Below, piece by piece: positions 280 to 41,916 of a DNA stretch of 42,586 nt (positions are counted from its first letter, which is position 1; each line of letters opens with the position of its first letter). The DNA is from an uncultured Gammaproteobacteria bacterium (GTDB taxonomy: Bacteria; Patescibacteriota; Microgenomatia; UBA12405; JAHJSD01): assembly GCA_964432015.1 (NCBI GenBank), contig CAYSLZ010000002.1, forward strand, positions 1 through 42,586. The letters run 5' to 3'. The notes below the pieces were generated by a model. The model worked only from the letters and a program-made list of their open reading frames with translations. It was not told the DNA's origin and searched no databases. The translations under genes and the position numbers were made by a program.

Positions 280-1398
280 ATGAAAAAACATAATAAAGAA
301 AAAATATTAGCTTTACTTTTTATAATGCCATTGTTGGCTGTTATTGCCGGTTTGGTTTTAGTTCAGCAAACACAAGAATTACGGCGGCGAGCTGCCTATG
401 GCGAAATAAACGTCCAGCTTTTACCTAGTGAACAAGAAGTAGAACTTGATGAGGAAACAGTTAATGTTCGGGTTCAGGTTTTACCGGATGAATTTTTGGT
501 CAGCGGTGGAAAATTTGGTATAAGTTATGACCCGAATATTTTAGAATTTCAATCATTTAATCTTAATGAAAAATATAATGGTTTATCACAAGCTTCAGAT
601 GAAGGTGTTGTTGAGACCGTTTCTTATTTAAAATCCGACCAGGAAGCGCCGACAGAAACTTTTAATTTAGTTACCTTAACTTTTAATTTGGTGAGTGAAG
701 GTTCAACAACTTTGTCTAAAACTGGAGAAGTTTCTTATGTTGGTTCAAGAGGGAGAGAGGGGCTAATGGATCGGGTTTTAAGTATTAATTCATTTACTAA
801 GTCAGAAGTTGATGTTTTAGCTGGTGAGCCGACACCGATTCCAACAGAACCACCTTCTGGTTGGCCGGAATTAAGCTTCAAAGTTAAATTTAGTGGAACA
901 AACTATCGAGTTGGTGATCAGGAAATAGTTGTCGATGATATTGGGACGCGTCCTGTAGACATAATTGTTAAAGGAAATGGAATTAACCAGAAGTATAAGG
1001 ATGTTATGGTTGAATTTAATGACCAAGCAGTAGGTGAAGGATATCTGGAATTAGTTGGAGTTGAGCCGGGGGATAATTATGCTGTCTTGATAAAAGGGCC
1101 GGTTCATTTAGCCCGTAGATTTTGTGTTGAAGAACAAGTAGAACACTGTTGGCTGGGTGAAGAGGAAATTAGTCTTCAGCCAGGAGAGAATAGCTTTGAT
1201 TGGACCGGGCTGAATCTAGAGCCAGGTGATATTGACCAGAATGGTGTGGTTAATAGCTCTGATTTCACAACCTTAAAACAGGCTTTAATGAGGAAAGGTG
1301 ATATTCAGGAAGATATTAATTTTAATGGTATAGTTAATGGGCAGGATATAACCTTTTTCTTACAAACACTGAGTACTAAATATGAAGATGAAATCTAA
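280..1398 (+). CDS. Membrane-anchored cohesin-domain protein with C-terminal dockerin
   Basis: N-terminal TM helix (ILALLFIMPLLAVIAGLVLV). Cohesin-like beta module (VNVRVQVLPDEFLVSGGKFGISYDPNILEF ... FNLVTLTFNLVSEGSTTL). PT linker and second beta domain. C-terminal duplicated GDIDQNGVVNSSDF / DINFNGIVNGQDI dockerin loops. Confidence 0.65.
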   Translation: MKKHNKEKILALLFIMPLLAVIAGLVLVQQTQELRRRAAYGEINVQLLPSEQEVELDEETVNVRVQVLPDEFLVSGGKFGISYDPNILEFQSFNLNEKYNGLSQASDEGVVETVSYLKSDQEAPTETFNLVTLTFNLVSEGSTTLSKTGEVSYVGSRGREGLMDRVLSINSFTKSEVDVLAGEPTPIPTEPPSGWPELSFKVKFSGTNYRVGDQEIVVDDIGTRPVDIIVKGNGINQKYKDVMVEFNDQAVGEGYLELVGVEPGDNYAVLIKGPVHLARRFCVEEQVEHCWLGEEEISLQPGENSFDWTGLNLEPGDIDQNGVVNSSDFTTLKQALMRKGDIQEDINFNGIVNGQDITFFLQTLSTKYEDEI

Positions 1399-25613: not shown

Positions 25614-28244
25614 TTAATTTCCATTATCACGGAGGCAGGTCATGGCAGAAACCTTTTCGGATTTTGTTTTGAAGCGCATTAAAATAACACCTTGAGTGGT
25701 TCTGCCTAAAACGGGAATATTTTTAAGAGGCAGTTTAATAATTTTACCTTTTAATGAAGTTAAAATTACTTTATCCGTATTTTGGTCGACAATTTGAGCT
25801 TCAGCAACTAAGCCGGTTTTTTTATTGATGTTAGCTACTTTTACGCCTACGCCGGCTCTTTTTTGAAGAGGATATTTATAGGCGTTTGTGCGTTTACCCA
25901 GTCCCCTTTCGGTAACTACCAAAAGGTGGCGGAATAATTTCCGCCGTTTATCTTCCGGAACCGGTTTCTTGTCTGGAATGGTATCGAGAGAAATAACATG
26001 GTCTCCCTTTTTAAGTTCAATTCCTTTAACTCCCTGAGCTGTTCTACCCATTGTCCTGACATCTGTTTCTTTAAAGCGGATACATTTGCCTTTTTTAGTA
26101 ATTAAGAAAGCATGTTTCCTACCATTAGTTAATTTCGCATCAACTAATTGATCATTATCCTTTAGACTTATTGCAATAATTCCGGTTTTCCTAATATTTT
26201 CAAAATCTTCAATTTTTGTTCGTTTAACTTGACCTTGGTCAGTGGCTAAAAGTATGTATTTTTCCTCCGGCGTTTTTTTGGCAGAAAGTTTAAGAAACGC
26301 CTGTACTTTTTCGCCTTGTTCAATGTTAATTAAGTTAATTATTGCTTGGCCTTTAGATTTTCTTGAACCCTCCGGTATTTCCCAAACACGTTTTTCATAA
26401 ACTTTACCTTGATCGGTAAAGAAATAGATTATGTCGTGGGTTGTACATGAAAATAAGTTTTTAATTGAATCTTCTTCTTTAGTTGTCATTCCCTGAACGC
26501 CTTTACCACCTCGTCTTTGACTTCGGTAAGTTCCGCGGCCCACCCTTTTGATATAACCAGTTTTAGTAATAGTGACAATAACTTCTTCTTTAGCAATTAA
26601 ATCCTCCTCACTTAACTCACCAACTTTTCGTTTATATATCTTGGTTTTTCTTTTGTCTCCGTATTTTTCTTTTATCTCTTTAAGCTCGTTTTTTATTTCT
26701 TTTAGCATAATTTTTGGCTTGGTGAGAAGCGTTTCTAGTTTTTCCAATGTTTCCTTAATTTCCTCATATTCGGCTTCTATTTTTTGGCGTTCCAAAGCAG
26801 CTAATCTTTTTAACTGCATATCTAAAATTGCTTGAGCCTGAATGTCAGTTAATTCAAATTTGTTCATTAAGTTGGATTTAGCTGTTTCAGTGTCTTTGGA
26901 TTTTTTAATTGTTTCAATTATTTCATCAAGATTATCAAGAGCTATTTTTAGACCTTCTAAAATGTGGGCTCTGAATTTTGCTTCTCTAAATTCATAAAGG
27001 GTTCTTCGTCTGATAATTTCATGTCGATGGCGGATGAAAAGAAGCAGAATTTGGCGTAAATTTAAGGTTTGTGGAACTCCATCAACCAAGGCAACTATGT
27101 TTGCCGGATAGTTTTTTTGAAGATAGGTGTATTTATAAAGCTTGTTAAGAATTGATTTTGGTCGAGCTGTTCGTTTTAATTCAACTACAACTCTAATTCC
27201 ATCCCGGTCGGATTCATCTCGCAAATCTGATATGCCGGTAATCTTTTCATCTTTAGCCAGTTTAGCAATTTTTGCCACTAGTTTAGCCTTGTTGACCTGA
27301 TATGGCAATTCACTGATAATAATGTTGTGTTTTCCCATATTGGCTTCTTTTATTTCTGCTTTACCGCGCATGAGAATTTTACCTTTTCCAGTAGTGTAGG
27401 TTTTATTGATTGATTCTTGGTCAAATATTTCTCCTGATGTTGGGAAATCAGGTCCTTTAATAAATTCTAAAAGATCTGTACTTGATAATTTTGATTCAAA
27501 TTCAAACTGCCAGTCAGCTAATTTTTTAACCTCTTGCATAATTACGTATTCAGCAGTCTTTTTTTTGTTTTCGGTTAGTTTTTTAAATTCAATTTTTTCC
27601 TCATTTTCCTTTTTCTTAAGCTTGCCTTCGTCAATCATGTGAATTATGGCGTTAATTACCTCGGTTAGGTTATGAGGAGGAATTTTTGTTGCCATGCCAA
27701 CAGCAATTCCGTCTCCTCCGTTGATAAGAAGGTTGGGAATTTTTGTTGGTAAAACAACCGGTTCTTTTAAAGTTCTATCAAAATTATCAGTAAAGTCTAC
27801 TGTTTCCTTGTTAATGTCTCGAAGCATTTCTTGGGCAATTTTGGCCATCTTTGCTTCGGTATAACGCATAGCAGCTGGCGGGTCACCGTCAATTGACCCG
27901 AAATTACCTTGTCCGTTAATTAAACAATAACGCATAGCAAAGTCCTGGGCCATATGAACGAGAGCTCCATAGCTTGAACTGTCACCATGAGGATGATATT
28001 TTCCTAAAACTTCTCCAACTATCTTGGCTGATTTGCTGTAGCTGGCACCGCTGGTTAAATGCATTTGGTGCATGGCGTAAAGTATTCTTCTTTGTACCGG
28101 TTTTAGACCGTCACGGACATCAGGTAAAGCTCGTGAAACAATAACACTCATTGCGTAGTCTAAGTACGCTTGTCGCATTTCGTCGGTAATTTTTACTGGT
28201 TTTATTTGATCAGCCTTTGGGGCTATTTTTGTTTTCTTTGCCAT
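25614..28244 (-). CDS. gyrA: DNA gyrase subunit A
   Basis: [29 protein letters not shown] (catalytic Tyr), GPDFPT, and C-terminal beta-pinwheel repeats. Confidence 0.95.
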
Positions 28245-32137: not shown

Positions 32138-32183
32138 TATTCGCTGTTCGCTATTAACTATTAACTATTAACTATTAACTAGG
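32137..32183. repeat. Heptamer tandem array (6.5 units), CTATTCG CTGTTCG (CTATTAA)x4 CTAGG
   Basis: Read directly from the sequence. In minus sense the units are TTAATAG. It spans from the last codons and stop of tyrS to the GTG of the next gene. Confidence 0.9.
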
Positions 32184-33304
32184 CCTTTCATGAGCCTTAA
32201 TCCTTCTTTCGCTGTTCCTGACTGAAAATGGCTCCGAGCTGGTTTTAACTTTTCAATCAGCCAGTCGGATATTCCATTTTTTAAATCCAGCGGATGAAGA
32301 TTTCCGATTTTATAATCTTCTTTTAATTTATTTATATTTTTGTATTCTATGTTACCGCCGTGTTTTTCGGCTCTTTCAATTTTTAAGCCTTTGTCCACTT
32401 TTTCTTCGCCCCAGAAAACTAACATTTCTACCCAATTAATAATTGGATTAAATTTAATTTCTTTTGGCGGACAGTAAGCATCGTGGATTTTTTGTTTAAT
32501 TATTTTTGGTGAATCATGAATAAAAATTGCCGATTTAGGTTTAGATTTACTCATTTTTAGTTCTTCCGAAGAATCGTTCTTTGACTTTGGTCCCTCTAGG
32601 CCGGCAATTGTATTTTGATGAACGGCCACCGGTGAAATTATATTTCCCTGTTTATCTTTAAGGGGATTAATAGTTATTTTGGAGGCAACGTCACGGGCAT
32701 TGGCATGGGCCTTGCGTTGGTCAATTCCGGCATGGACCAAATTAGCTTGAAGAGTAAAAATATCGGCTACTTGCAGTGGTGGGTAAAAAAGAGTTGCCAT
32801 ATCGACGCTTTTTCCCTCTTTTTTGCCCATAATTGAAATTGACCTTAAATTTCGAGCAAGCGTGATATGTTTGCCGACTTCCATAAACGTTTCCCAGTGG
32901 ATTAGATTATCTTTGTACAAATTTTTTCCGATTACAAATTTTAAGCTGCCTTTTTTAACTTCTTTGTCAGTATTTACGTTAAAGCATTTCAGTGAGGCAA
33001 TTAGCCCTTGTTTAAAATAAGAGTTAGTTGCTTTTCTGATGTTTTCCCAGTTACCGCCAAGTTTGTTATTTAAGTAAGAATGAAAATCAGCCAATAAAAT
33101 AGTGCATTTAACGCCGGCTTCTAGAAAGTCGGCAATTTTGCCCATACTCATTAAGCCGGTTCCCAGATGAACCATACCGGAAATTTCGAAACCGATGTAG
33201 TGGTTTAACGGGGTTTTGGACTTAATTAACTTCTTTAAATCTTCTTCCGTCATTATTTCTTGGCAGTTTCTGGTGATTAAATCAATTTGCTTATTAATAT
33301 CCAT
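32168..33304 (-). CDS. tyrS: Tyrosine--tRNA ligase, archaeal/eukaryal type
   Basis: Collinear with M. jannaschii-type TyrRS as recalled: YIGFEISGMVHLGT, ILLADFHSYLN, FYPPLQVADI, KMSKSK, HDAYCPP, FNPI, LHPLDLKN. No bacterial S4-like C-terminal domain. Confidence 0.9.
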   Translation of the reverse strand: MDINKQIDLITRNCQEIMTEEDLKKLIKSKTPLNHYIGFEISGMVHLGTGLMSMGKIADFLEAGVKCTILLADFHSYLNNKLGGNWENIRKATNSYFKQGLIASLKCFNVNTDKEVKKGSLKFVIGKNLYKDNLIHWETFMEVGKHITLARNLRSISIMGKKEGKSVDMATLFYPPLQVADIFTLQANLVHAGIDQRKAHANARDVASKITINPLKDKQGNIISPVAVHQNTIAGLEGPKSKNDSSEELKMSKSKPKSAIFIHDSPKIIKQKIHDAYCPPKEIKFNPIINWVEMLVFWGEEKVDKGLKIERAEKHGGNIEYKNINKLKEDYKIGNLHPLDLKNGISDWLIEKLKPARSHFQSGTAKEGLRLMKGLVNS

Positions 33305-33343
33305 TATTTTTATTTTACCACTCCCCTACCCTATTTTAAAATG

Positions 33344-33374
33344 TCGAAAAACGCAGGGTAAACCCTGCTATTAC
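33344..33374 (-). terminator. Copy 4 of the post-stop hairpin family, with a covarying stem and a U-tract (intrinsic terminator)
   Basis: Minus sense reads GTAATAGCAGGGTTTACCCTGCGTTTTTCG. Flanks match copies 1-3, and the stem changes from GCAGACT/AGTCTGC to GCAGGGT/ACCCTGC. Confidence 0.65.
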
Positions 33375-33431
33375 AAAGGTTGGGGGTGGGGTTCGCTTTT
33401 GTACTAGTACGCTTTAGCGTGCGTATCAATC

Positions 33432-34385
33432 TTATTCGGCTTTATCTTCAATTAAGTCAGTGATAAGTTTGTTTAATCTAACGGCGGCGACGCCGACTGC
33501 CTGGTCGGCTCCACCGTAATACACGTAGAGTGTACCGTTTATGACAACTGCTCCGCAGGGATAGACCACATTATTGACCTCTCCTTCCAGTTCAAATTGC
33601 ATTCTTGGCTCAAGCAAGGGATATTTTGACCGGGCAATTACTTGAGTTGGGTTATCAAGGTCAAGGAGCATTGCCCCTACCCGATAATGCCGGTCTTTAT
33701 TGGCAATTCCGTGGTACAAAAGCAGCCAGCCGGCTTCTGTTTTTATTGGCGGGGCGGCAATACCGATTTTTCGGTCATCCCAACTGTTAGCTCCGGTTTT
33801 AAACCAAAGGCTACCTTTAATCCATTTTTTTTCTTTTTTAAACTCCAAGTCGTCAACAAAGTCTAACCAAATACCCGGATAAATGCGGTGAAAAATTCCG
33901 TATTTACCGTCCTTCATATTGGGAACAATACAAGAGTTTTTGTCATCAATTCCGGGAGGCGAGATTAATTTTGGTTTAGCCCATTTCCATCTGCGGTTTA
34001 AAAAATCATCAATTTTTATTGATGACATAGCGATTCTGGTTGGGCCGACCCCATCATAAGCTGTGTAGCAAATATAAAGTCGATCGCCAATTTGGGTTAT
34101 CCGCGGGTCTTCACAACCAGAATATGCACCTTGTTTTTTCTTTTTTTCTTCTTTAATTCTCGGAACATAAATTGGCCGTGGGTATCTCTCTGATATTGTA
34201 AATCCATCCTCACTAATCGCGTAGCCTAAAGTAGAAGTATTGTTTTTTGCTGTTGCCCGATAAAGAATATGAACTTTATTGTCCAAATATATGGCGGCTG
34301 GATTAAAGGTTAGTTTCGCCTCCCACTCGTGTTCTGGAATCGGTGTAATTATCGGGTTTCTGACGTACCTTTTTAGTCTAATCAT
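33432..34385 (-). CDS. GH130-family glycoside phosphorylase/hydrolase (DUF377-type beta-propeller)
   Basis: NPIITP..HEWEAKLTFNPAAI, VHILYRA, SGCEDPRIT, LYICYTAYDG, IGIAAPPIKT..GWLLLYHG, YYGGAD. Confidence 0.8.
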   Translation of the reverse strand: MIRLKRYVRNPIITPIPEHEWEAKLTFNPAAIYLDNKVHILYRATAKNNTSTLGYAISEDGFTISERYPRPIYVPRIKEEKKKKQGAYSGCEDPRITQIGDRLYICYTAYDGVGPTRIAMSSIKIDDFLNRRWKWAKPKLISPPGIDDKNSCIVPNMKDGKYGIFHRIYPGIWLDFVDDLEFKKEKKWIKGSLWFKTGANSWDDRKIGIAAPPIKTEAGWLLLYHGIANKDRHYRVGAMLLDLDNPTQVIARSKYPLLEPRMQFELEGEVNNVVYPCGAVVINGTLYVYYGGADQAVGVAAVRLNKLITDLIEDKAE

Positions 34386-35346
34386 TGGTTAGTTCGTTAA
34401 GTAAATCTTTTAATGAACAAGTTGCCAAACAGCAATAGGTATCGGTTCCTCCGTAGTAAATATGGAGTCTGTCATTTTCAACTAATTCCCCGCTTGGAAA
34501 AACAACTTCAGGAATAATACCTTCTCTTTCGTATTTTTTTTCAGGGATTAATAAGGGAAAATTAGAGCGGCCGATTACTTGTTTTGGCTTTTTGGGGTCT
34601 AAAAGAGCCGCCTCAATATTAAATATTCTTTTTTGTTCATTAAAATAATTATTGATGTAGGAATAAATTAACAGCCATCCTTTATTAGTTTTGATTGGTG
34701 GGGCTCCAACCTCCACGTGGTCCTGAGGTCTTCTGATTAAACGCAAGGTATGGGTTTCTAGTTCATCCAGCCAATTATCCCAATAATCTTTGTTCCAAAT
34801 ATCACTGATTTGTTTAAATTCCGCCGTTGCAACATTTACCGGGGGTTGATCAGTTTGGGCGCTTAAGATAGCAAATATTTTGCCGTTTATTTTTTCCGGG
34901 AATAAAGCCATTGCTTTAGCATTAAAAGGAGTAACTAACCGTTTATCAGTGATTTTTTTTAGGTCAGGTGATATTGCTAAACCAACTTTAATAGTGTAGC
35001 GATTAGGGGGATGATCTGATATGGCGGTGTAAAAAATGTAGTAGTTGTTATTAAAATAAGTTACTCTTGGATCTTCACAACCGAACTTTTCCCATTCTTG
35101 TTCCGGTTTAATAAATTGACGCCGGTGGTTGAGTTTAGTTCCACATTGACCAGAAGCGATTCCAATAGTCGATAATTCAACTGTTTTGCCCTGATATTCT
35201 TGAGGATGAGATAAACCACGGTAGACAAGATAAATATTTTGTCCCTTTTTCACAGCACACCCGTTGTAAGCTCCTTTTGCTTCCCAATCGTGGTCGGGGT
35301 TAGGTGATAAAATCGGGTTATTTGGATGTCGGTTTACGTCAATCAT
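34378..35346 (-). CDS. GH130-family paralog 2
   Basis: NPILSP..HDWEAKGAYNG, IYLVYRG, FGCEDPRVT, YYIFYTA, VGAPPIKTNKGWLLIYS, IYYGGTD. Overlaps paralog 1 by 8 nt. Confidence 0.8.
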   Translation of the reverse strand: MIDVNRHPNNPILSPNPDHDWEAKGAYNGCAVKKGQNIYLVYRGLSHPQEYQGKTVELSTIGIASGQCGTKLNHRRQFIKPEQEWEKFGCEDPRVTYFNNNYYIFYTAISDHPPNRYTIKVGLAISPDLKKITDKRLVTPFNAKAMALFPEKINGKIFAILSAQTDQPPVNVATAEFKQISDIWNKDYWDNWLDELETHTLRLIRRPQDHVEVGAPPIKTNKGWLLIYSYINNYFNEQKRIFNIEAALLDPKKPKQVIGRSNFPLLIPEKKYEREGIIPEVVFPSGELVENDRLHIYYGGTDTYCCLATCSLKDLLNELTND

Positions 35347-35350
35347 TGTT

Positions 35351-37204
35351 TTAGTTTATCGTATTCCATTGGTTAAGGCAACGGCTGTTTTGTTTTTTAA
35401 GTGAACTGACCAGGCTTTCTATTTTTGTGTAAGCAACACAACTGACTGTATCTGCTCCTCCGTAATAAACAAGCAGTTTTTTATCTTTAACTGCTGCACC
35501 GCAAGCATAAACCACGCCGCTTTTAAAGCCTACGTTTTCATAGTCCATATCCGGCTCAAGGAGTGGATAATTAGTTCGATATTTTATTTTAGTTGGGTCA
35601 TTACTCTCTAAAATCATTGCCCCTACTTTATATCTTCCCGGGTCGTGGTTATCCATGGCGTGATAAAAAATCAGCCAGCCGTCATTTGTTTTTATTGGTG
35701 TCGGGCCGACTCCCCTCATCCAGTTGTCCCAGTGATTTTTTCTTCCAGAAGGAGAATAATAACTTTTGATTGGCCCGTTTTTGTCAAAGTTTAAATCATC
35801 AAAATAATCAACCAAAATTTTGGGCGATAAACTGTGTAAAACAGCATATTTACCGTTAATTTTGTCTGGAAATAATGCCCAATTTTTATGGATTTCTCCC
35901 TTTGGTGAGAGTCTGGTTGGTTCCGACCAGTTCCAATTTTGATTTTTAAAATCATTTACTTTTATTGAAGTAAGTGCGACCCCGGGTGGTTCGACGCCGT
36001 TCCAGGCAGTATAAGTCATGTAAATAGTATCTTTTATTTTAGTTAATTTTGGGTCCTCACAGCCGCCGCATCCCCATCCAGAGGTATAATGATAGGTTGC
36101 TTTTGGAGCTTGGCGGTTTATTTCAAATTTTTCTCTGGGAATGTAAGCGGGCTTATTTGAACGGTAGTCTATTTCAAATCCGCTTTTTGTGTTAGCGTAG
36201 CCAAAAACGGAAATATCATTTTCACCTACCGCCCGGTATATCAAGTGAATTTTATCGTCGATGTTAACAGCAGCAGGATTAAAGACTAATTTTGACTCCC
36301 ATTTATTTTCTGGTTTTGGCTCTAAAATCGGGTTTTTCTTATGCCTTTTAAGTTTTTCAAGGTAAGGAAAAGGAGATGGCCCGGTTGAATCTCTGATTTC
36401 AAAAAACGGTTGAGTTAAAGCATAGATATTTTCACTGCCGATTTGCCAATAAGAAATTAATTTATTTTTTAATTTAACCGCCCCAAGAGGGTTAATTTTT
36501 GTTTCAGTTGTGGTTGGTATAGAGGCACTGATTGGTATTTGCTTCGACCAAATAATTTGTTGAGGATTATCCTTATCAACCAGCAGTAACTGCCAGGAGT
36601 AATCTTCCCAGATATCCGGATCTTGATAACGGTAAAGAAGGATTAATATTCCTTGCTGATGATTGAAAATTTGACAAATTTTAAGATTGGTTTGGCCTAA
36701 AATCTTTTCTTTAGGTTGAAAAATTGTTTTTCTTTTTTGAGGTTGACGGGTAAGTTTTTTAAAATATCCTAAATCAATTTTTTTTCTGCCGAATATTAAT
36801 CTTTTTTCTTTTTTGGGGAAGGGAATAAGCATTCCTGCCTCATGAATAGAGTCAACTTTTTCATCTTCTGACCATTTTATTAAATCCGGTGATTGACGAT
36901 ATTTTAAATAGTATCGGTCTTTATCTTTCTCCAGAAAAGTCAGTAGATATTTATTTTTGATTCTACTAACTCGGAAATCTTTTATTTTTGGCTTTTTATT
37001 AAACCATGGCCAACGTGGTGGAAAGGAAAGTTTATCATTTATTGGTCGAAAATTTAATCCATTTTTATCAGAAAGTGCAATATTAAACGGATAATTTTTT
37101 TTTGTTGAATAAAAAAGAACAGCTTTATTTTCAAGTTTTGCCACACCTAAACCAGATAGGAAAAAACGACTGCGGCTAGTATCTTTGTTTTGAGCTGGTG
37201 TCAT
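35351..37204 (-). CDS. GH130-family paralog 3 with a ~330-aa N-terminal extension
   Basis: The C-terminal half has NPILEP..NKWESKLVFNPAAV, IHLIYRA, GGCEDPKLT, IYMTYTAWNG, VGPTPIKTNDGWLIFYHA, VYYGGAD. ATG 37204 is chosen because the track ORF's first 38 codons overlap tRNA-Tyr. Confidence 0.75.
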   Translation of the reverse strand: MTPAQNKDTSRSRFFLSGLGVAKLENKAVLFYSTKKNYPFNIALSDKNGLNFRPINDKLSFPPRWPWFNKKPKIKDFRVSRIKNKYLLTFLEKDKDRYYLKYRQSPDLIKWSEDEKVDSIHEAGMLIPFPKKEKRLIFGRKKIDLGYFKKLTRQPQKRKTIFQPKEKILGQTNLKICQIFNHQQGILILLYRYQDPDIWEDYSWQLLLVDKDNPQQIIWSKQIPISASIPTTTETKINPLGAVKLKNKLISYWQIGSENIYALTQPFFEIRDSTGPSPFPYLEKLKRHKKNPILEPKPENKWESKLVFNPAAVNIDDKIHLIYRAVGENDISVFGYANTKSGFEIDYRSNKPAYIPREKFEINRQAPKATYHYTSGWGCGGCEDPKLTKIKDTIYMTYTAWNGVEPPGVALTSIKVNDFKNQNWNWSEPTRLSPKGEIHKNWALFPDKINGKYAVLHSLSPKILVDYFDDLNFDKNGPIKSYYSPSGRKNHWDNWMRGVGPTPIKTNDGWLIFYHAMDNHDPGRYKVGAMILESNDPTKIKYRTNYPLLEPDMDYENVGFKSGVVYACGAAVKDKKLLVYYGGADTVSCVAYTKIESLVSSLKKQNSRCLNQWNTIN

Positions 37205-37257
37205 TAGATACAGATTAGCATATTTTGAATTTGATTTGCAAGGAAGAGTTTTTTTTG

Positions 37258-37340
37258 TCCAGGGGGTAGGATTCGAACCTACGCAGGGAAAACCCGACGG
37301 TTTTACAGACCGTTCCATTTGACCACTCTGGCACCCCTGG
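37258..37340 (-). tRNA. tRNA-Tyr (anticodon GTA), long variable arm, C1-G72, no encoded CCA
   Basis: The reverse complement is CCAGGGG-TG-CCA-GAGTGGTCAAA-TGG-A-ACGGT-CTGTAAA-ACCGT-CGGGTTTTCCCTGC-GTAGG-TTCGAAT-CCTAC-CCCCTGG-A. All stems pair. Confidence 0.9.
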
Positions 37341-37369: not shown

Positions 37370-37398
37370 ATTTTATAATGAAGCTGGCCTTGTTGCAA
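37370..37398 (-). promoter_or_regulatory. Putative promoter for tRNA-Tyr and the GH130 operon
   Basis: Minus sense reads TTGCAA (37398-37393), a 17-nt spacer, TAAAAT (37375-37370), then hairpin ACCAAGT-CAA-ACTTGGT (37363-37347) before the tRNA. Confidence 0.4.
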
Positions 37399-37435
37399 AT
37401 AGCTGACACCGTTGAAAAATATCCTAACATCATTT

Positions 37436-39515: not shown

Positions 39516-39543
39516 AGTAATCAGTAATCAGTAATCAGTAATT
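39516..39543. repeat. Heptamer tandem array (AGTAATC)x3 + AGTAATT
   Basis: Minus sense reads TTACTGA x3. It occupies most of the 31-nt gap between the EndoQ-like stop (39542) and the ATG at 39510. Confidence 0.9.
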
Positions 39544-40837
39544 AGAATAGGGATTTTTGTTGTTGGCCACCTTTACTCTTTTGATTATCATCCCATATTT
39601 TAACTTTGCCGTAAAGCCCGTCATACCCCGGCTGGACAGAAATTTTACCTAATCTATTTTTCTTAATCCCCCGGCTGATTTTTTTGCCTAATACCGGTTG
39701 TAATTTTTTTATCGGGGCATTAATTAAAAGATTTATTTCGTTTTTAAAATGGTTTACGGCCAATTGGTATTTTTTTTTGACTGTTTTGGTTTTTACACCG
39801 ACATTTTCTGCTTCAGCAATGATTTCTTGAAGAGGAATCAAGCGGATAAAAGGTGGATGGGTATTCTGGGGGTGAGAAATTAGTTTAAGACCCTTTTTTA
39901 ATTTTGTTTCAGGTTTAATTTTCTGTTGTCTGGAAAGTTCGGATACTCGATGCATTACGCCGACAGTCAGCGGTTTACCACAGACCGGACAGCTGCTTCC
40001 GAGTTTTTTTGTCTTTTCAGGTGACTGGCAAACTTTACATTTTCGGTGGCCGGTATAGTGATATTTGCCCTCTTCCGGGTAAAATTCCAGAGTCATTACA
40101 ACTTTTGCTTTGGGGTTTGTTTTTGTTTTTAAAGCAGTGAGTATATCTTGGTAATTAAATTTTTCTGGCAGTTTGAAAATAGTAACTTCCCGGCCTAAAT
40201 TAGGTAGACTGTGGGCATCAGAAAAACTGACAATCACTTTATTATCTAATTGTTTAATCTGCCAGTTCATTAATGGGTCGGAGGAAAGACCGGTTTCAAC
40301 GGCGGTAATTTGGTTGGCGTATTTGCCAAAACAGGCTTCAATTGAATCATAACCGGATTTTGATCCAAATAAAGAAAACCAAGGTGTCCAGATGTGGGCT
40401 GGTAGATAAAGAATATTCGGATTTATTTTTTGACTCATTTTGATAAATTGTTTTGGCGGGATGCCTAAAATAGGCCGGCCGTCTGAGAGAAGATTAAACT
40501 CTTTGGTTGTTAACAATTGGTTGATTTCTTCAGCGGTTTTGATATTGGGAGCAAAGACTAACATGTGGATTCGGTGTTGGTTGTAAATAAATGAAAGTTC
40601 AGTGTTGATTATAAATTTAGGTGATTGACAATTATTTTTAAGTTGATAAATACCGCTTCTGATTTCATCTAATTTATTTTTAATATTTCTAATCCATAAG
40701 GGATGAGTAAAATCAGTAACAGTAACTAAATCCAAGCCTTTTTTGTTTGCCCATTGACCAATATTTTCTAATTGCATTTTAGGGCTGACCGCCCGGGAGT
40801 ATTTGGAGTGGAAATGTAAATCAGCGTATATTTTCAT
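39542..40837 (-). CDS. PHP-domain endonuclease Q-like protein
   Basis: N-terminal ADLHFHSKYSRAVS PHP motif, later HIWTPW, SDAHS, and zinc ribbon CKVC...CPVCG as in EndoQ. Confidence 0.7.
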   Translation of the reverse strand: MKIYADLHFHSKYSRAVSPKMQLENIGQWANKKGLDLVTVTDFTHPLWIRNIKNKLDEIRSGIYQLKNNCQSPKFIINTELSFIYNQHRIHMLVFAPNIKTAEEINQLLTTKEFNLLSDGRPILGIPPKQFIKMSQKINPNILYLPAHIWTPWFSLFGSKSGYDSIEACFGKYANQITAVETGLSSDPLMNWQIKQLDNKVIVSFSDAHSLPNLGREVTIFKLPEKFNYQDILTALKTKTNPKAKVVMTLEFYPEEGKYHYTGHRKCKVCQSPEKTKKLGSSCPVCGKPLTVGVMHRVSELSRQQKIKPETKLKKGLKLISHPQNTHPPFIRLIPLQEIIAEAENVGVKTKTVKKKYQLAVNHFKNEINLLINAPIKKLQPVLGKKISRGIKKNRLGKISVQPGYDGLYGKVKIWDDNQKSKGGQQQKSLF

Positions 40838-40839
40838 TT

Positions 40840-41916
40840 TTAAGAAACTAAACGGTAGTAAGCTCCTTTTGTGCTTCCTTTTTTTTCAACAATGCCGGCA
40901 TCAATAAGTTTTCTTAAATCGCGCCAAATAGTGTCATCAGAGACCATGGGAATTATTTCACGGGCATCAGCCATTCTTAGGGCATTATATTCACGCATAT
41001 ATCCAACTAGTTTTATCTGTCTTTTATTAAGGGGAATTTGTTTATTACCTAATTTTTTCTTTAAAGTAATGTCTGAGGAAATTTGGCGGACTTTTTCCTC
41101 CACTTTTTTCAATTCTGTTGACAGGGCGGTTGTAAAAAATTCCAACCAGGGTGTTTGGTCGCGGTCGCCAACTTCGCCTTTTTGCAAAGAAACTGCTTGT
41201 AAAGAGTTATAATATTTTTCAGCATGACGGTCAAAATATTCTTCTAAGGCAAATAATCTTCGGATATTGTATCCTTCCTGCATTAATACTAAAGTTGTCA
41301 TTGCTCTAGCTGTGCGTCCGTTTCCTTCTGTAAAAGGATGAATAGCAACAAGAGTATAGTGAGTGATTCCGGCTTTTAAAACCGGATGAGTTTGTTTAGC
41401 AGAGCTGCTGTTTAACCATGAAAAAAAGTCTTTGATTAAATAGTCTACCTCGGCCGGCGGTGGTGGTCTGAAAAAAACTTCATCAGTAACACTATTGCGG
41501 ACAGTTACTTGTAAGTCACGAAGTTGACCAGTCTGTTCTTCAGGAACAATGTCTCCAACGGTTTTTTGATGGATGTCCAGAAGTGTTTGTTTACTGTATA
41601 GATTATCGGTTGTTTCTTTTTGTTGACTAATTTCTTCAAGAAAGCTCATTACTTCGCGATAGTTGATTACTTCCTGGATATCCCGTTTAGCGGCATATAC
41701 CTGTTTTCCTTCAATTACTTTTGCTACTTGATTAAAACTAAGATCGTTTCCCTCTAGTTTTGTACCATAATGAACCGCATTAACAATTGCTTCTTCTTGA
41801 AACTGCTTTTCATAAGCGGGAATAATCGGAGAAGCATCAATTATTGCTTTTGAGCTTTCGATTTGTGAAATGTTGTTTAATATCTGGCCGTTTATCGAGA
41901 ATTTAGGGTTGAACAT
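40840..41916 (-). CDS. Fic-family protein with a C-terminal winged-helix domain
   Basis: Core motif HPFTEGNGRTARAM. Fic_N-like HYGTKLEGNDLSF. The C-terminal end resembles a wHTH. Confidence 0.9.
   Translation of the reverse strand: MFNPKFSINGQILNNISQIESSKAIIDASPIIPAYEKQFQEEAIVNAVHYGTKLEGNDLSFNQVAKVIEGKQVYAAKRDIQEVINYREVMSFLEEISQQKETTDNLYSKQTLLDIHQKTVGDIVPEEQTGQLRDLQVTVRNSVTDEVFFRPPPPAEVDYLIKDFFSWLNSSSAKQTHPVLKAGITHYTLVAIHPFTEGNGRTARAMTTLVLMQEGYNIRRLFALEEYFDRHAEKYYNSLQAVSLQKGEVGDRDQTPWLEFFTTALSTELKKVEEKVRQISSDITLKKKLGNKQIPLNKRQIKLVGYMREYNALRMADAREIIPMVSDDTIWRDLRKLIDAGIVEKKGSTKGAYYRLVS

What the first reader, a model, noticed from the sequence alone, without database searches (positions are those of the whole stretch)
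32168..37340. Archaeal-type TyrRS together with a tRNA-Tyr that has a bacterial long variable arm but the archaeal/eukaryal C1-G72 identity pair
Seen: the tyrS translation is collinear with M. jannaschii-type TyrRS. The recalled motifs YIGFE.SG..HLG, LLAD.H.YLN, YP..QV.DI, KMS.SK, AYCP and HP.DLKN all match, including the Tyr- and Asp-containing tyrosine-binding contexts. HIGH reads HLGT, and there is no bacterial C-terminal S4-like domain. The tRNA-Tyr 4 kb away folds unambiguously as 83 nt with all stems paired. It has a 14-nt variable arm, as in bacteria, but its acceptor stem is 5' CCAGGGG / CCCCUGG 3', giving C1-G72 with A73. Established: bacterial TyrRS recognise G1-C72 and the long variable arm. 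Archaeal and eukaryal TyrRS use C1-G72 and A73, and this orthogonality underlies the M. jannaschii pairs used in genetic code expansion. Inference: the synthetase was replaced by an archaeal-type enzyme and the tRNA acceptor end co-evolved, giving a hybrid tRNA.
Basis: partly seen in the sequence, partly recalled or inferred. Interest (0 to 1): 0.65.

Follow-up and report, generated by a model that had tools for sequence, protein, structure and literature searches.

The report
Archaeal-type TyrRS with flipped-pair tRNA-Tyr
A tiny-genome (CPR/Patescibacteria) bacterium uses an archaeal-style tyrosine tRNA synthetase together with a bacterial-looking tyrosine tRNA whose first base pair has been flipped to the archaeal form; this is real, but it was described for this bacterial group in 2017.

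Summary
Window 32168-33304 (-) encodes a 378-aa archaeal/eukaryal-type TyrRS. It scores 361 bits on NCBIfam NF006330 but stays below the cut-off of the bacterial tyrS model. It is 43% identical to and collinear with PDB 2cyc, and it has no S4 domain. Window 37258-37340 (-) is an 83-nt tRNA-Tyr(GUA) with C1-G72, A73 and a 14-nt variable arm.

The host is bacterial (DnaX, DnaB, GyrA/B). tyrS sits in a gyrA-gyrB-fdx-tyrS neighbourhood that is conserved in relatives, including MAGs named Ca. Shapirobacteria.

In a metagenome sample of the same tRNA-Tyr body type that did not constrain positions 1 and 72, 91 of 117 copies have G1-C72 and 24 have C1-G72. Wherever a tyrS lies in the same locus, C1-G72 goes with the archaeal type (10/10) and G1 with the bacterial type (8/8).

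It is also already published: Mukai, Reynolds, Crnkovic and Soll, Life 2017 (PMC5370408), reported this for CPR bacteria and named Shapirobacteria.

Small additions here: the variable-arm stem is kept by compensatory changes, and the top four acceptor pairs (CCAG/CUGG) are invariant in all 20 distinct C1-type tRNAs. Absence of a second, bacterial-type tyrS could not be tested.

The parts
32168..33304 (-). tyrS: archaeal/eukaryal-type tyrosyl-tRNA synthetase, 378 aa. HIGH motif = HLGT at 46-49; KMSKS at 250-254. No C-terminal S4-like domain. Predicted C1-G72 readers are R154, R197 and K198. Tyrosine-pocket residues are Y36, Y174, Q178 and D181. Anticodon G34 readers are H337 and D340.
   Evidence: NF006330 361 bits, and TIGR00234 below its cut-off. 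Pfam PF00579 only. PDB 2cyc E = 3.6e-97, 43% identity. Residue mapping against 1j1u.
37258..37340 (-). tRNA-Tyr(GUA), 83 nt, type II. It has C1-G72, C2-G71, A3-U70, G4-C69 and A73, and a 14-nt variable region with a GGG/CCC stem. CCA is not encoded.
   Evidence: ARAGORN. Rfam RF00005 58.4 bits. Covariation across 20 relatives.
37370..37399 (-). Weak sigma-70-like promoter match (TTGCAA, 17 nt, TAAAAT), about 30 nt upstream of the tRNA 5' end. It is tentative only.
   Evidence: Consensus scan: 21 sites found in the region against 15.3 +/- 3.5 expected, so it is not significant on its own.
33312..33340 (-). Weak promoter-like match with an extended -10 TG (TTTAAA, 17 nt, TAAAAT), just upstream of the tyrS start codon. 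A terminator-like hairpin at 33353-33368 (-) follows the preceding GH130 gene. Together they suggest that tyrS is its own transcription unit. This is tentative.
   Evidence: No T-box or other Rfam leader was found.

Best explanation
This is the native tyrosine-charging pair of a CPR (Patescibacteria, Microgenomates/Shapirobacteria-related) bacterium. An ancestor acquired an archaeal-type TyrRS, which replaced the bacterial enzyme.

The resident bacterial type-II tRNA-Tyr was kept, but the top of its acceptor stem was rewritten to C1-G72 (with C2-G71, A3-U70 and G4-C69). This lets the new enzyme read it through its conserved Arg/Arg/Lys acceptor-end contacts, A73 and anticodon G34.

The long variable arm no longer has a protein partner, because there is no S4 domain. 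It is tolerated by the enzyme and kept as a folded stem-loop.

Shown here: gene identities, tRNA structure, the bacterial chromosomal context, vertical inheritance, and the strict co-variation of enzyme type with the 1-72 pair. Inferred: actual charging specificity, loss of the bacterial enzyme, and the direction and donor of the transfer.
For: Enzyme type. C1-G72-reading residues conserved.

tRNA fold and register.

Bacterial host.

Context and inheritance: the gyrA-ppa-gyrB-o264-fdx-o108-tyrS order is conserved in L001-L003 and L014 (GyrB 86-88% identity, TyrRS 79-80%), in L010 (Ca. Shapirobacteria; 67% and 67%) and in L122 (64% and 64%). TyrRS divergence therefore tracks housekeeping-gene divergence. 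This indicates vertical inheritance and rules out mis-binning.

Named homologues are Ca. Shapirobacteria or Patescibacteria; 5479 hits have E <= 1e-20.

Co-variation: tRNA-Tyr next to the archaeal-type tyrS is C1-G72 in 10/10 loci, and next to the bacterial-type tyrS it is G1 in 8/8.

Bacterial ancestry of the tRNA: its body is identical to that of a G1-C72 tRNA-Tyr.

Variable arm: the stem is kept with GC-to-CG compensation.

Literature: PMC5370408 reports the same system in CPR bacteria, including Shapirobacteria. PMC7590224 shows that an archaeal TyrRS charges V-arm-bearing tRNA chassis once C1:G72 and A73 are installed.
Against: No whole genome is available, so a second bacterial-type tyrS or a G1-C72 tRNA-Tyr elsewhere cannot be excluded.

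There are no aminoacylation data for this pair.

The donor lineage was not tested here; DPANN is taken from the literature.

The 18-locus correlation contains some related genomes, so the counts are not fully independent.
Confidence: 0.88

Rival explanations
1. The archaeal-type TyrRS and the C1-G72 tRNA are an additional, orthogonal second pair. A canonical bacterial TyrRS and a G1-C72 tRNA-Tyr would be encoded elsewhere in the genome. This would resemble the dual TrpRS-A/TrpRS arrangement in Ca. Beckwithbacteria.
For: Only 42.6 kb of the genome is visible. Mukai et al. describe coexisting bacterial and archaeal Trp pairs in one CPR bacterium, and two C1-G72 tRNA-Tyr genes in one Roizmanbacterium.
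Against: None of the 10 loci with an archaeal-type tyrS carries a G1 tRNA-Tyr, and none of the 8 with a bacterial-type tyrS carries a C1 tRNA-Tyr. Both tRNAs would carry the GUA anticodon, so a second pair would add no coding capacity. CPR genomes are small and usually hold one copy of each synthetase (general knowledge). Mukai et al. report no bacterial-type TyrRS alongside the archaeal-type one.
Confidence: 0.06
2. Assembly or binning artefact: an archaeal (DPANN) tyrS fragment was wrongly joined to bacterial sequence.
For: CPR and DPANN organisms co-occur, and composite genomes are sometimes cross-contaminated (noted in PMC5370408).
Against: tyrS lies inside a 42.6-kb contig between bacterial genes. 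The same gene order recurs in at least 7 independent assemblies from different studies. GC content is uniform at 0.33-0.39 across the region. The partner tRNA has a bacterial body.
Confidence: 0.01
3. The history runs the other way. The C1-G72/archaeal-type system would be ancestral in these CPR lineages (or transferred from bacteria to DPANN archaea), and the G1-C72/bacterial-type state would be derived.
For: Mukai et al. state that transfer from bacteria to archaea is an alternative, and they discuss an archaeal identity set in LUCA.
Against: G1-C72 with a V-arm is the majority state among tRNAs sharing the same body (91 of 117). The C1 tRNAs keep the V-arm, which only the S4 domain of the bacterial enzyme is known to bind. 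That is most simply a relic of a bacterial-type past. The enzyme is 43% identical to a euryarchaeal TyrRS, while its match to bacterial TyrRS is negligible.
Confidence: 0.05

Closest known systems
CPR bacterial archaeal-identity TyrRS/tRNA-Tyr systems (Mukai, Reynolds, Crnkovic and Soll 2017, Life 7:8, PMC5370408)
   Same: Archaea/eukarya-type TyrRS in a CPR bacterium. tRNA-Tyr has C1-G72 and retains the bacterial V-arm. Shapirobacteria is listed among the major groups that carry it. The same evolutionary interpretation is given.
   Different: Nothing essential. This window is another genome of the group: its best match in public data is 80% identical, and the named Shapirobacteria matches are 63-69% identical. 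The analyses added here appear neither in the parts of that paper's text I read (parts 1-2 of 4) nor in the passages my term searches returned. They are the locus-level correlation, the invariance of acceptor pairs 1-4, and the V-stem covariation.
PDB 2cyc TyrRS (from memory, Pyrococcus horikoshii; Kuratani et al. 2006), with 2cya and 7fg6
   Same: 43% identity and collinear over residues 1-373, including the insertions and the C-terminal helices that the 306-aa M. jannaschii enzyme lacks.
   Different: The natural substrate of the archaeal enzyme is a type-I tRNA-Tyr without a long variable arm. Here the substrate keeps a 14-nt arm.
M. jannaschii TyrRS/tRNA-Tyr pair (1j1u), the orthogonal pair used in genetic code expansion
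   Same: The same enzyme type and the same identity set (C1-G72, A73, G34). Residues R132, R174, K175, H283 and D286 are conserved here as R154, R197, K198, H337 and D340.
   Different: Only 32% identical, and about 70 residues shorter than the window enzyme. M. jannaschii F261 is H315 here. The M. jannaschii tRNA has G3-C70 and no V-arm (recalled from memory).
Synthetic V-arm-bearing tyrosine tRNAs charged by Ca. Methanomethylophilus alvus TyrRS (Mukai 2020, PMC7590224)
   Same: These show by experiment that an archaeal TyrRS accepts a tRNA with a long variable arm once C1:G72 and A73 are present.
   Different: They are engineered allo-tRNA chassis (9/3 acceptor branch) tested in E. coli, not a natural cloverleaf.
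Canonical bacterial TyrRS/tRNA-Tyr (for example T. thermophilus or G. stearothermophilus)
   Same: The tRNA body is that of a bacterial type-II tRNA-Tyr: long V-arm, A73 and the GUA anticodon.
   Different: The enzyme does not reach the bacterial tyrS model's cut-off and has no S4 domain. The 1-72 pair is inverted.

Membership tests
Archaeal/eukaryal-type TyrRS (NCBIfam NF006330 / PRK08560) | Scores above the curated family cut-off | tested here: met
   361.1 bits against a cut-off of 220; match covers query 1-365 and model 1-333 of 342.
Archaeal/eukaryal-type TyrRS (NCBIfam NF006330 / PRK08560) | Class I HIGH and KMSKS motifs and a Tyr/Gln/Asp tyrosine pocket | tested here: met
   HLGT at 46-49; KMSKS at 250-254. 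Y36, Y174, Q178 and D181 align to M. jannaschii Y32, Y151, Q155 and D158.
Archaeal/eukaryal-type TyrRS (NCBIfam NF006330 / PRK08560) | No C-terminal S4-like (V-arm-binding) domain | tested here: met
   Pfam finds only PF00579, spanning residues 30-352 of 378. The protein is collinear with 2cyc to residue 373.
Archaeal/eukaryal-type TyrRS (NCBIfam NF006330 / PRK08560) | Conserved residues that read C1-G72 (M. jannaschii R132, R174, K175) | tested here: met
   R154, R197 and K198 by pairwise alignment with 1j1u.
Archaeal/eukaryal-type TyrRS (NCBIfam NF006330 / PRK08560) | Charges C1-G72 tRNA-Tyr but not G1-C72 tRNA-Tyr | not testable with these tools
   This needs an aminoacylation assay.
Bacterial-type TyrRS (TIGR00234) | Scores above the curated cut-off and has an S4 domain | tested here: not met
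   97 bits, below the 113.8 cut-off. No S4 domain. The only bacterial-type TyrRS among the PDB hits (6bqy) matches residues 4-84 alone at 27 bits.
CPR archaeal-identity Tyr system (Mukai et al. 2017) | The host is a CPR bacterium | tested here: met
   Bacterial replication genes lie on the contig. TyrRS homologues and syntenic loci are named Ca. Shapirobacteria, Patescibacteria or Parcubacteria. No rRNA or marker-gene phylogeny was run.
CPR archaeal-identity Tyr system (Mukai et al. 2017) | tRNA-Tyr has C1-G72 and A73 | tested here: met
   The pair is invariant in 20 distinct relatives.
CPR archaeal-identity Tyr system (Mukai et al. 2017) | The V-arm of bacterial origin is retained | tested here: met
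   The variable region is 14 nt here and 13-16 nt in all 24 C1-type copies. The tRNA body is identical to that of a G1-C72 bacterial tRNA-Tyr.
CPR archaeal-identity Tyr system (Mukai et al. 2017) | The archaeal-type enzyme is the only TyrRS in the genome (replacement, not addition) | not testable with these tools
Indirect support: no mixed loci among 18.
Bacterial type-II tRNA-Tyr | Long variable arm with a paired stem | tested here: met
   GGG/CCC stem with a UUUU loop. Pair 48-55 switches GC to CG in 3 of 20 sequences.
Bacterial type-II tRNA-Tyr | G1-C72 first pair | tested here: not met
   The first pair is C1-G72.

The most novel reading that the evidence does not exclude
The switch may have involved more than flipping one base pair. 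In all 20 distinct C1-type tRNAs the top four acceptor pairs are frozen as C1-G72, C2-G71, A3-U70 and G4-C69. Their linked TyrRSs are only 48-100% identical to the window enzyme. Every other helix in these tRNAs shows compensatory change. In G1-type tRNAs with the same body, pairs 2-71 to 4-69 vary freely (1.35-1.94 bits of entropy).

This could mean that the CPR archaeal-type TyrRS clade uses an extended acceptor-stem identity set. Alternatively the set may include anti-determinants, for example against ProRS, because C1-G72 plus A73 mimics the bacterial tRNA-Pro acceptor end.

The variable arm, kept by compensatory substitutions although its S4 partner is absent, may likewise have a retained or new function. 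If so it would not be a passive relic.
Probability: 0.3. Interest if true: 0.45.

Novelty: already known. Interest (0 to 1): 0.2.

Why it matters
Tyrosine identity (G1-C72 plus V-arm and S4 domain, versus C1-G72) is the textbook example of a domain-specific tRNA identity rule, and it underlies the orthogonal M. jannaschii pairs used in genetic code expansion. Natural bacteria that crossed this barrier show that such rules are not hard-wired to a domain of life. They also show the minimal path a tRNA takes when its synthetase is replaced.

That point was made in 2017, so this window adds one more example and no discovery. Its practical value is modest. These natural hybrid tRNAs (bacterial body, archaeal acceptor end) and their enzymes are candidate parts for orthogonal-pair engineering. 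The invariant CCAG acceptor top and the maintained V-arm are also cheap hypotheses to test in vitro.

Tried and rejected
- **Alternative acceptor register.** I looked for a register giving G1-C72. Both Rfam and ARAGORN give C1-G72. Sliding the 3' partners by 1-3 columns drops pairing from 98.7% to 35-54%.
- **Single-sequence MFE fold.** It reproduces the acceptor stem, the V-arm stem and the T arm but misfolds the D and anticodon arms. I disregarded it in favour of the covariance model and the covariation.
- **Contamination or mis-binning.** Rejected on synteny in several independent assemblies and on uniform GC content.
- **DPANN archaeon as host.** Rejected because DnaX, DnaB, GyrA/B, CtpA and HtrA are on the contig.
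- **T-box or other leader upstream of tyrS.** No Rfam family other than tRNA reached its gathering score in the window.
- **Promoter and terminator scan.** The number of matches is not above the shuffled expectation, so the sites are listed as tentative only.
- **Extra V-arm-binding domain in this TyrRS.** None was found. The protein is collinear with 2cyc, whose own tRNA has no V-arm.
- **Second bacterial-type tyrS in the same genome.** Not possible.
- **Donor phylogeny (DPANN or other archaea).** Not attempted. The 120 listed homologues are 63-100% identical, and nearly all that carry a source name are Ca. Shapirobacteria or Patescibacteria, with no archaeal name among them. The DPANN origin is cited from PMC5370408 and was not tested.
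Full report
**1. What is in the sequence**

ARAGORN finds three tRNA genes in the window, one of them a tRNA-Tyr(GUA) at 37257-37340 on the minus strand. The Rfam tRNA covariance model matches 37258-37340 (-) end to end at 58.4 bits, against a gathering score of 29.

The RNA is 83 nt: CCAGGGGUGCCAGAGUGGUCAAAUGGAACGGUCUGUAAAACCGUCGGGUUUUCCCUGCGUAGGUUCGAAUCCUACCCCCUGGA. Its features are:
- The acceptor stem is CCAGGGG/CCCCUGG, so the first pair is C1-G72 and the discriminator is A73.
- The variable region is 14 nt (C, GGGUUUUCCCU, GC) with a GGG/CCC stem.
- CCA is not encoded.

The ORF at 32168-33304 (-) encodes 378 aa. Its classification rests on these results:
- Pfam finds only the class I W/Y catalytic family, PF00579, over residues 30-352.
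- NCBIfam places it in NF006330 (PRK08560) at 361 bits, above the cut-off of 220.
- The bacterial tyrS model TIGR00234 gives 97 bits, below its cut-off of 113.8.
- Against solved structures the best matches are 2cyc (E = 3.6e-97), 7fg6 and 2cya. M. jannaschii TyrRS (1j1u) scores 124 bits. The only bacterial-type TyrRS that matches at all (6bqy) scores 27 bits over the N-terminal 80 residues.
- The protein is 43% identical to 2cyc and collinear with it over residues 1-373. It is 32% identical to M. jannaschii TyrRS.

The one correction is that the enzyme resembles the longer 2cyc form, not the minimal M. jannaschii form.

**2. Host and context**

The window encodes DnaX, DnaB, GyrA, GyrB, CysRS, HisRS, a CtpA-type protease and HtrA, so the organism is a bacterium. 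GC content is about 0.32-0.41 throughout.

Between tyrS and the tRNA lie three tandem GH130 genes. Downstream of tyrS come a small membrane protein, a ferredoxin, a thioredoxin-like protein, gyrB, an inorganic pyrophosphatase and gyrA.

TyrRS homologues are abundant: 5479 have E <= 1e-20. Where they carry names, these are Ca. Shapirobacteria or Patescibacteria. The best non-self match is 80% identical.

A scan of GTDB species genomes returned 20 loci. Many of their records are titled 'uncultured Gammaproteobacteria', which is evidently a mislabel. The informatively named ones are Ca. Shapirobacteria, Ca. Parcubacteria or Patescibacteria.

The order gyrA-ppa-gyrB-o264-fdx-o108-tyrS is conserved, and TyrRS divergence tracks housekeeping-gene divergence:

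| Loci | GyrB identity | TyrRS identity |
|---|---|---|
| L001-L003, L014 | 86-88% | 79-80% |
| L010 (Ca. Shapirobacteria) | 67% | 67% |
| L122 | 64% | 64% |
| L137 | 70% | 54% |

The gene is thus a long-resident, vertically inherited part of a bacterial chromosome. It is neither a contaminant nor a recent island.

**3. Is the tRNA/enzyme pairing systematic?**

Three of the 20 TyrRS-anchored loci also hold a tRNA-Tyr. All three have C1-G72, A73 and a long variable arm. One shows a G7-C66 to A7-U66 compensatory change.

To avoid circularity I scanned metagenome contigs with a pattern taken only from the D arm and anticodon arm. This left positions 1 and 72 and the variable arm free. Parsing the 117 complete tRNA-Tyr genes across all loci held at that point (the 120 from this scan, the earlier TyrRS-anchored loci and the window) gave:
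- 91 copies with G1-C72, 24 with C1-G72 and one with G1-U72.
- A73 in all of them.

- Every locus with both a C1-G72 tRNA and a tyrS has the archaeal type (10/10).
- Every locus with a G1 tRNA and a tyrS has the bacterial type (8/8).
- Fisher's exact test gives p = 2.3e-5. It gives 7.8e-4 after dropping the window, the three TyrRS-anchored loci and one duplicate.

**4. The tRNA is a bacterial tRNA with a rewritten acceptor end**

The body of the window tRNA (positions 8-43 plus the T arm, 54 nt) is identical to that of a G1-C72 tRNA-Tyr in the sample. That tRNA is L114: GCUGCGG...CCGCAGCA. In body sequence, C1 and G1 tRNAs are intermixed. These short sequences do not support a phylogeny.

All 24 C1-type copies keep a 13-16-nt variable region.

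On an alignment of the 20 distinct C1-type tRNAs, I counted pairs for the cloverleaf with a 4-bp variable-arm stem:
- 98.7% of cells are paired.
- 12 of 24 pairs have changes on both sides.
- No shuffle out of 500 reaches the observed covariation score.
- Pairing collapses to 35-54% when partners are slid by 1-3 columns.
- The variable-arm stem itself shows GC-to-CG compensation at pair 48-55.

**5. How it most likely works**

In the M. jannaschii complex, C1-G72 is read by R132, R174 and K175, and A73 by the main chain at V195 (PMC1934993). I verified my copy of the M. jannaschii sequence against 1j1u: identical residue for residue over all 306 positions in the printed alignment. Mapping onto the window enzyme gives:
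- R132, R174, K175 correspond to R154, R197, K198.
- Y32, Y151, Q155, D158 (tyrosine pocket) correspond to Y36, Y174, Q178, D181.
- H283 and D286 (recalled from memory as contacting G34) correspond to H337 and D340. M. jannaschii F261 is H315 here.

The enzyme has no domain beyond those of 2cyc, whose own tRNA has no long arm. The variable arm is therefore presumably tolerated and not bound.

Experimental precedent exists. An archaeal TyrRS from Ca. Methanomethylophilus alvus charges V-arm-bearing tRNA chassis in E. coli once C1:G72 and A73 are installed (PMC7590224).

The steps that remain inferred are charging specificity, loss of the bacterial enzyme, and the donor.

**6. Comparison with what is known**

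This system was described by Mukai, Reynolds, Crnkovic and Soll (Life 2017, PMC5370408). [quoted passage not shown] '

Their Figure 2 legend lists Shapirobacteria among the major bacterial groups carrying the enzyme. They propose transfer from DPANN archaea, and they note that the opposite direction is also possible.

I rate novelty as 'already known'.

**7. What is slightly new here**

- A strict locus-level correlation was found in a sample that was independent and unbiased for the 1-72 pair.
- Synteny shows vertical inheritance.
- In all 20 distinct C1-type tRNAs, pairs 1-72, 2-71, 3-70 and 4-69 are invariant (CG, CG, AU, GC). G1-type tRNAs of the same body type have 1.35-1.94 bits of entropy at 2-71 to 4-69. 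The C1-type tRNAs vary with compensation everywhere else. This may reflect an extended identity set or anti-determinants, or simply a single origin under strong constraint. It is untested.
- The variable-arm stem is maintained by compensation even though its known protein partner is absent.

**8. Limits**

The absence of a second, bacterial-type tyrS and tRNA-Tyr in this genome could not be tested. I ran no donor phylogeny and no biochemistry. The promoter-like and terminator-like matches around tyrS and the tRNA are not above chance expectation.

**Verdict**

The feature is real and correctly interpreted, but it was published in 2017 for this bacterial group. Interest is 0.2.

Noticed in passing
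P0031 (homologue; not in the window): A 554-aa relative, 64% identical, carries an N-terminal YbaK-like aminoacyl-tRNA editing domain (PF04073, aa 45-142) fused to the archaeal-type TyrRS (aa 197-527). It is seen on 4 contigs, the longest 257 kb. Mukai et al. reported a PheRS-B2 fusion; neither the text I read nor my term searches turned up this one. It could be a real editing-domain fusion or a gene-calling artefact.
   Followed up: partly
L029 (- strand, tRNA at about 59-133 of the reverse complement) and L043 (+ strand, starting at about position 50): These are two tRNA-Tyr(GUA) genes with the same body as the CPR family and a G1 first base, but no long variable arm (6 and 5 nt). L029 has G1-U72 and lies next to a bacterial-type tyrS that is cut by the contig end, so whether that enzyme still has its S4 domain is unknown.
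   Followed up: partly
window 35351-37318 (-): The mechanical 655-aa ORF starts inside the tRNA-Tyr gene on the same strand, so part of its N-terminus is translated tRNA sequence. The real start is probably the ATG at 37204, giving 617 aa. The GH130 domain occupies residues 285-603, leaving an N-terminal region of about 280 aa with no family match.
   Followed up: partly
window 33432-37204 (-): Three tandem GH130 (beta-1,4-mannooligosaccharide phosphorylase family) paralogues sit between tyrS and tRNA-Tyr. All three are also present in L003, in a different position relative to tyrS.
   Followed up: partly
window 25614-28244 (-): The Pfam and NCBIfam matches to GyrA are split into residues 38-209 and 251-868. 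This implies an insertion of about 40 aa in the N-terminal breakage-reunion domain.
   Followed up: no
window 280-1398 (+): A 372-aa protein whose only family match is a C-terminal dockerin type I domain (PF00404, E = 4e-6). That is unusual for a CPR bacterium.
   Followed up: no
window 40840-41916 (-) and 39542-40837 (-): A Fic/DOC-domain protein lies next to a TIGR00375-family protein. The TIGR00375 gene is also found near tyrS in L010 (Ca. Shapirobacteria).
   Followed up: no
L001-L003, L005, L006 and other loci: Many GTDB-representative MAG records that are clearly Patescibacteria (syntenic, with 79-88% protein identity to this window) are titled 'uncultured Gammaproteobacteria bacterium'. 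This is a labelling problem in the public records.
   Followed up: no
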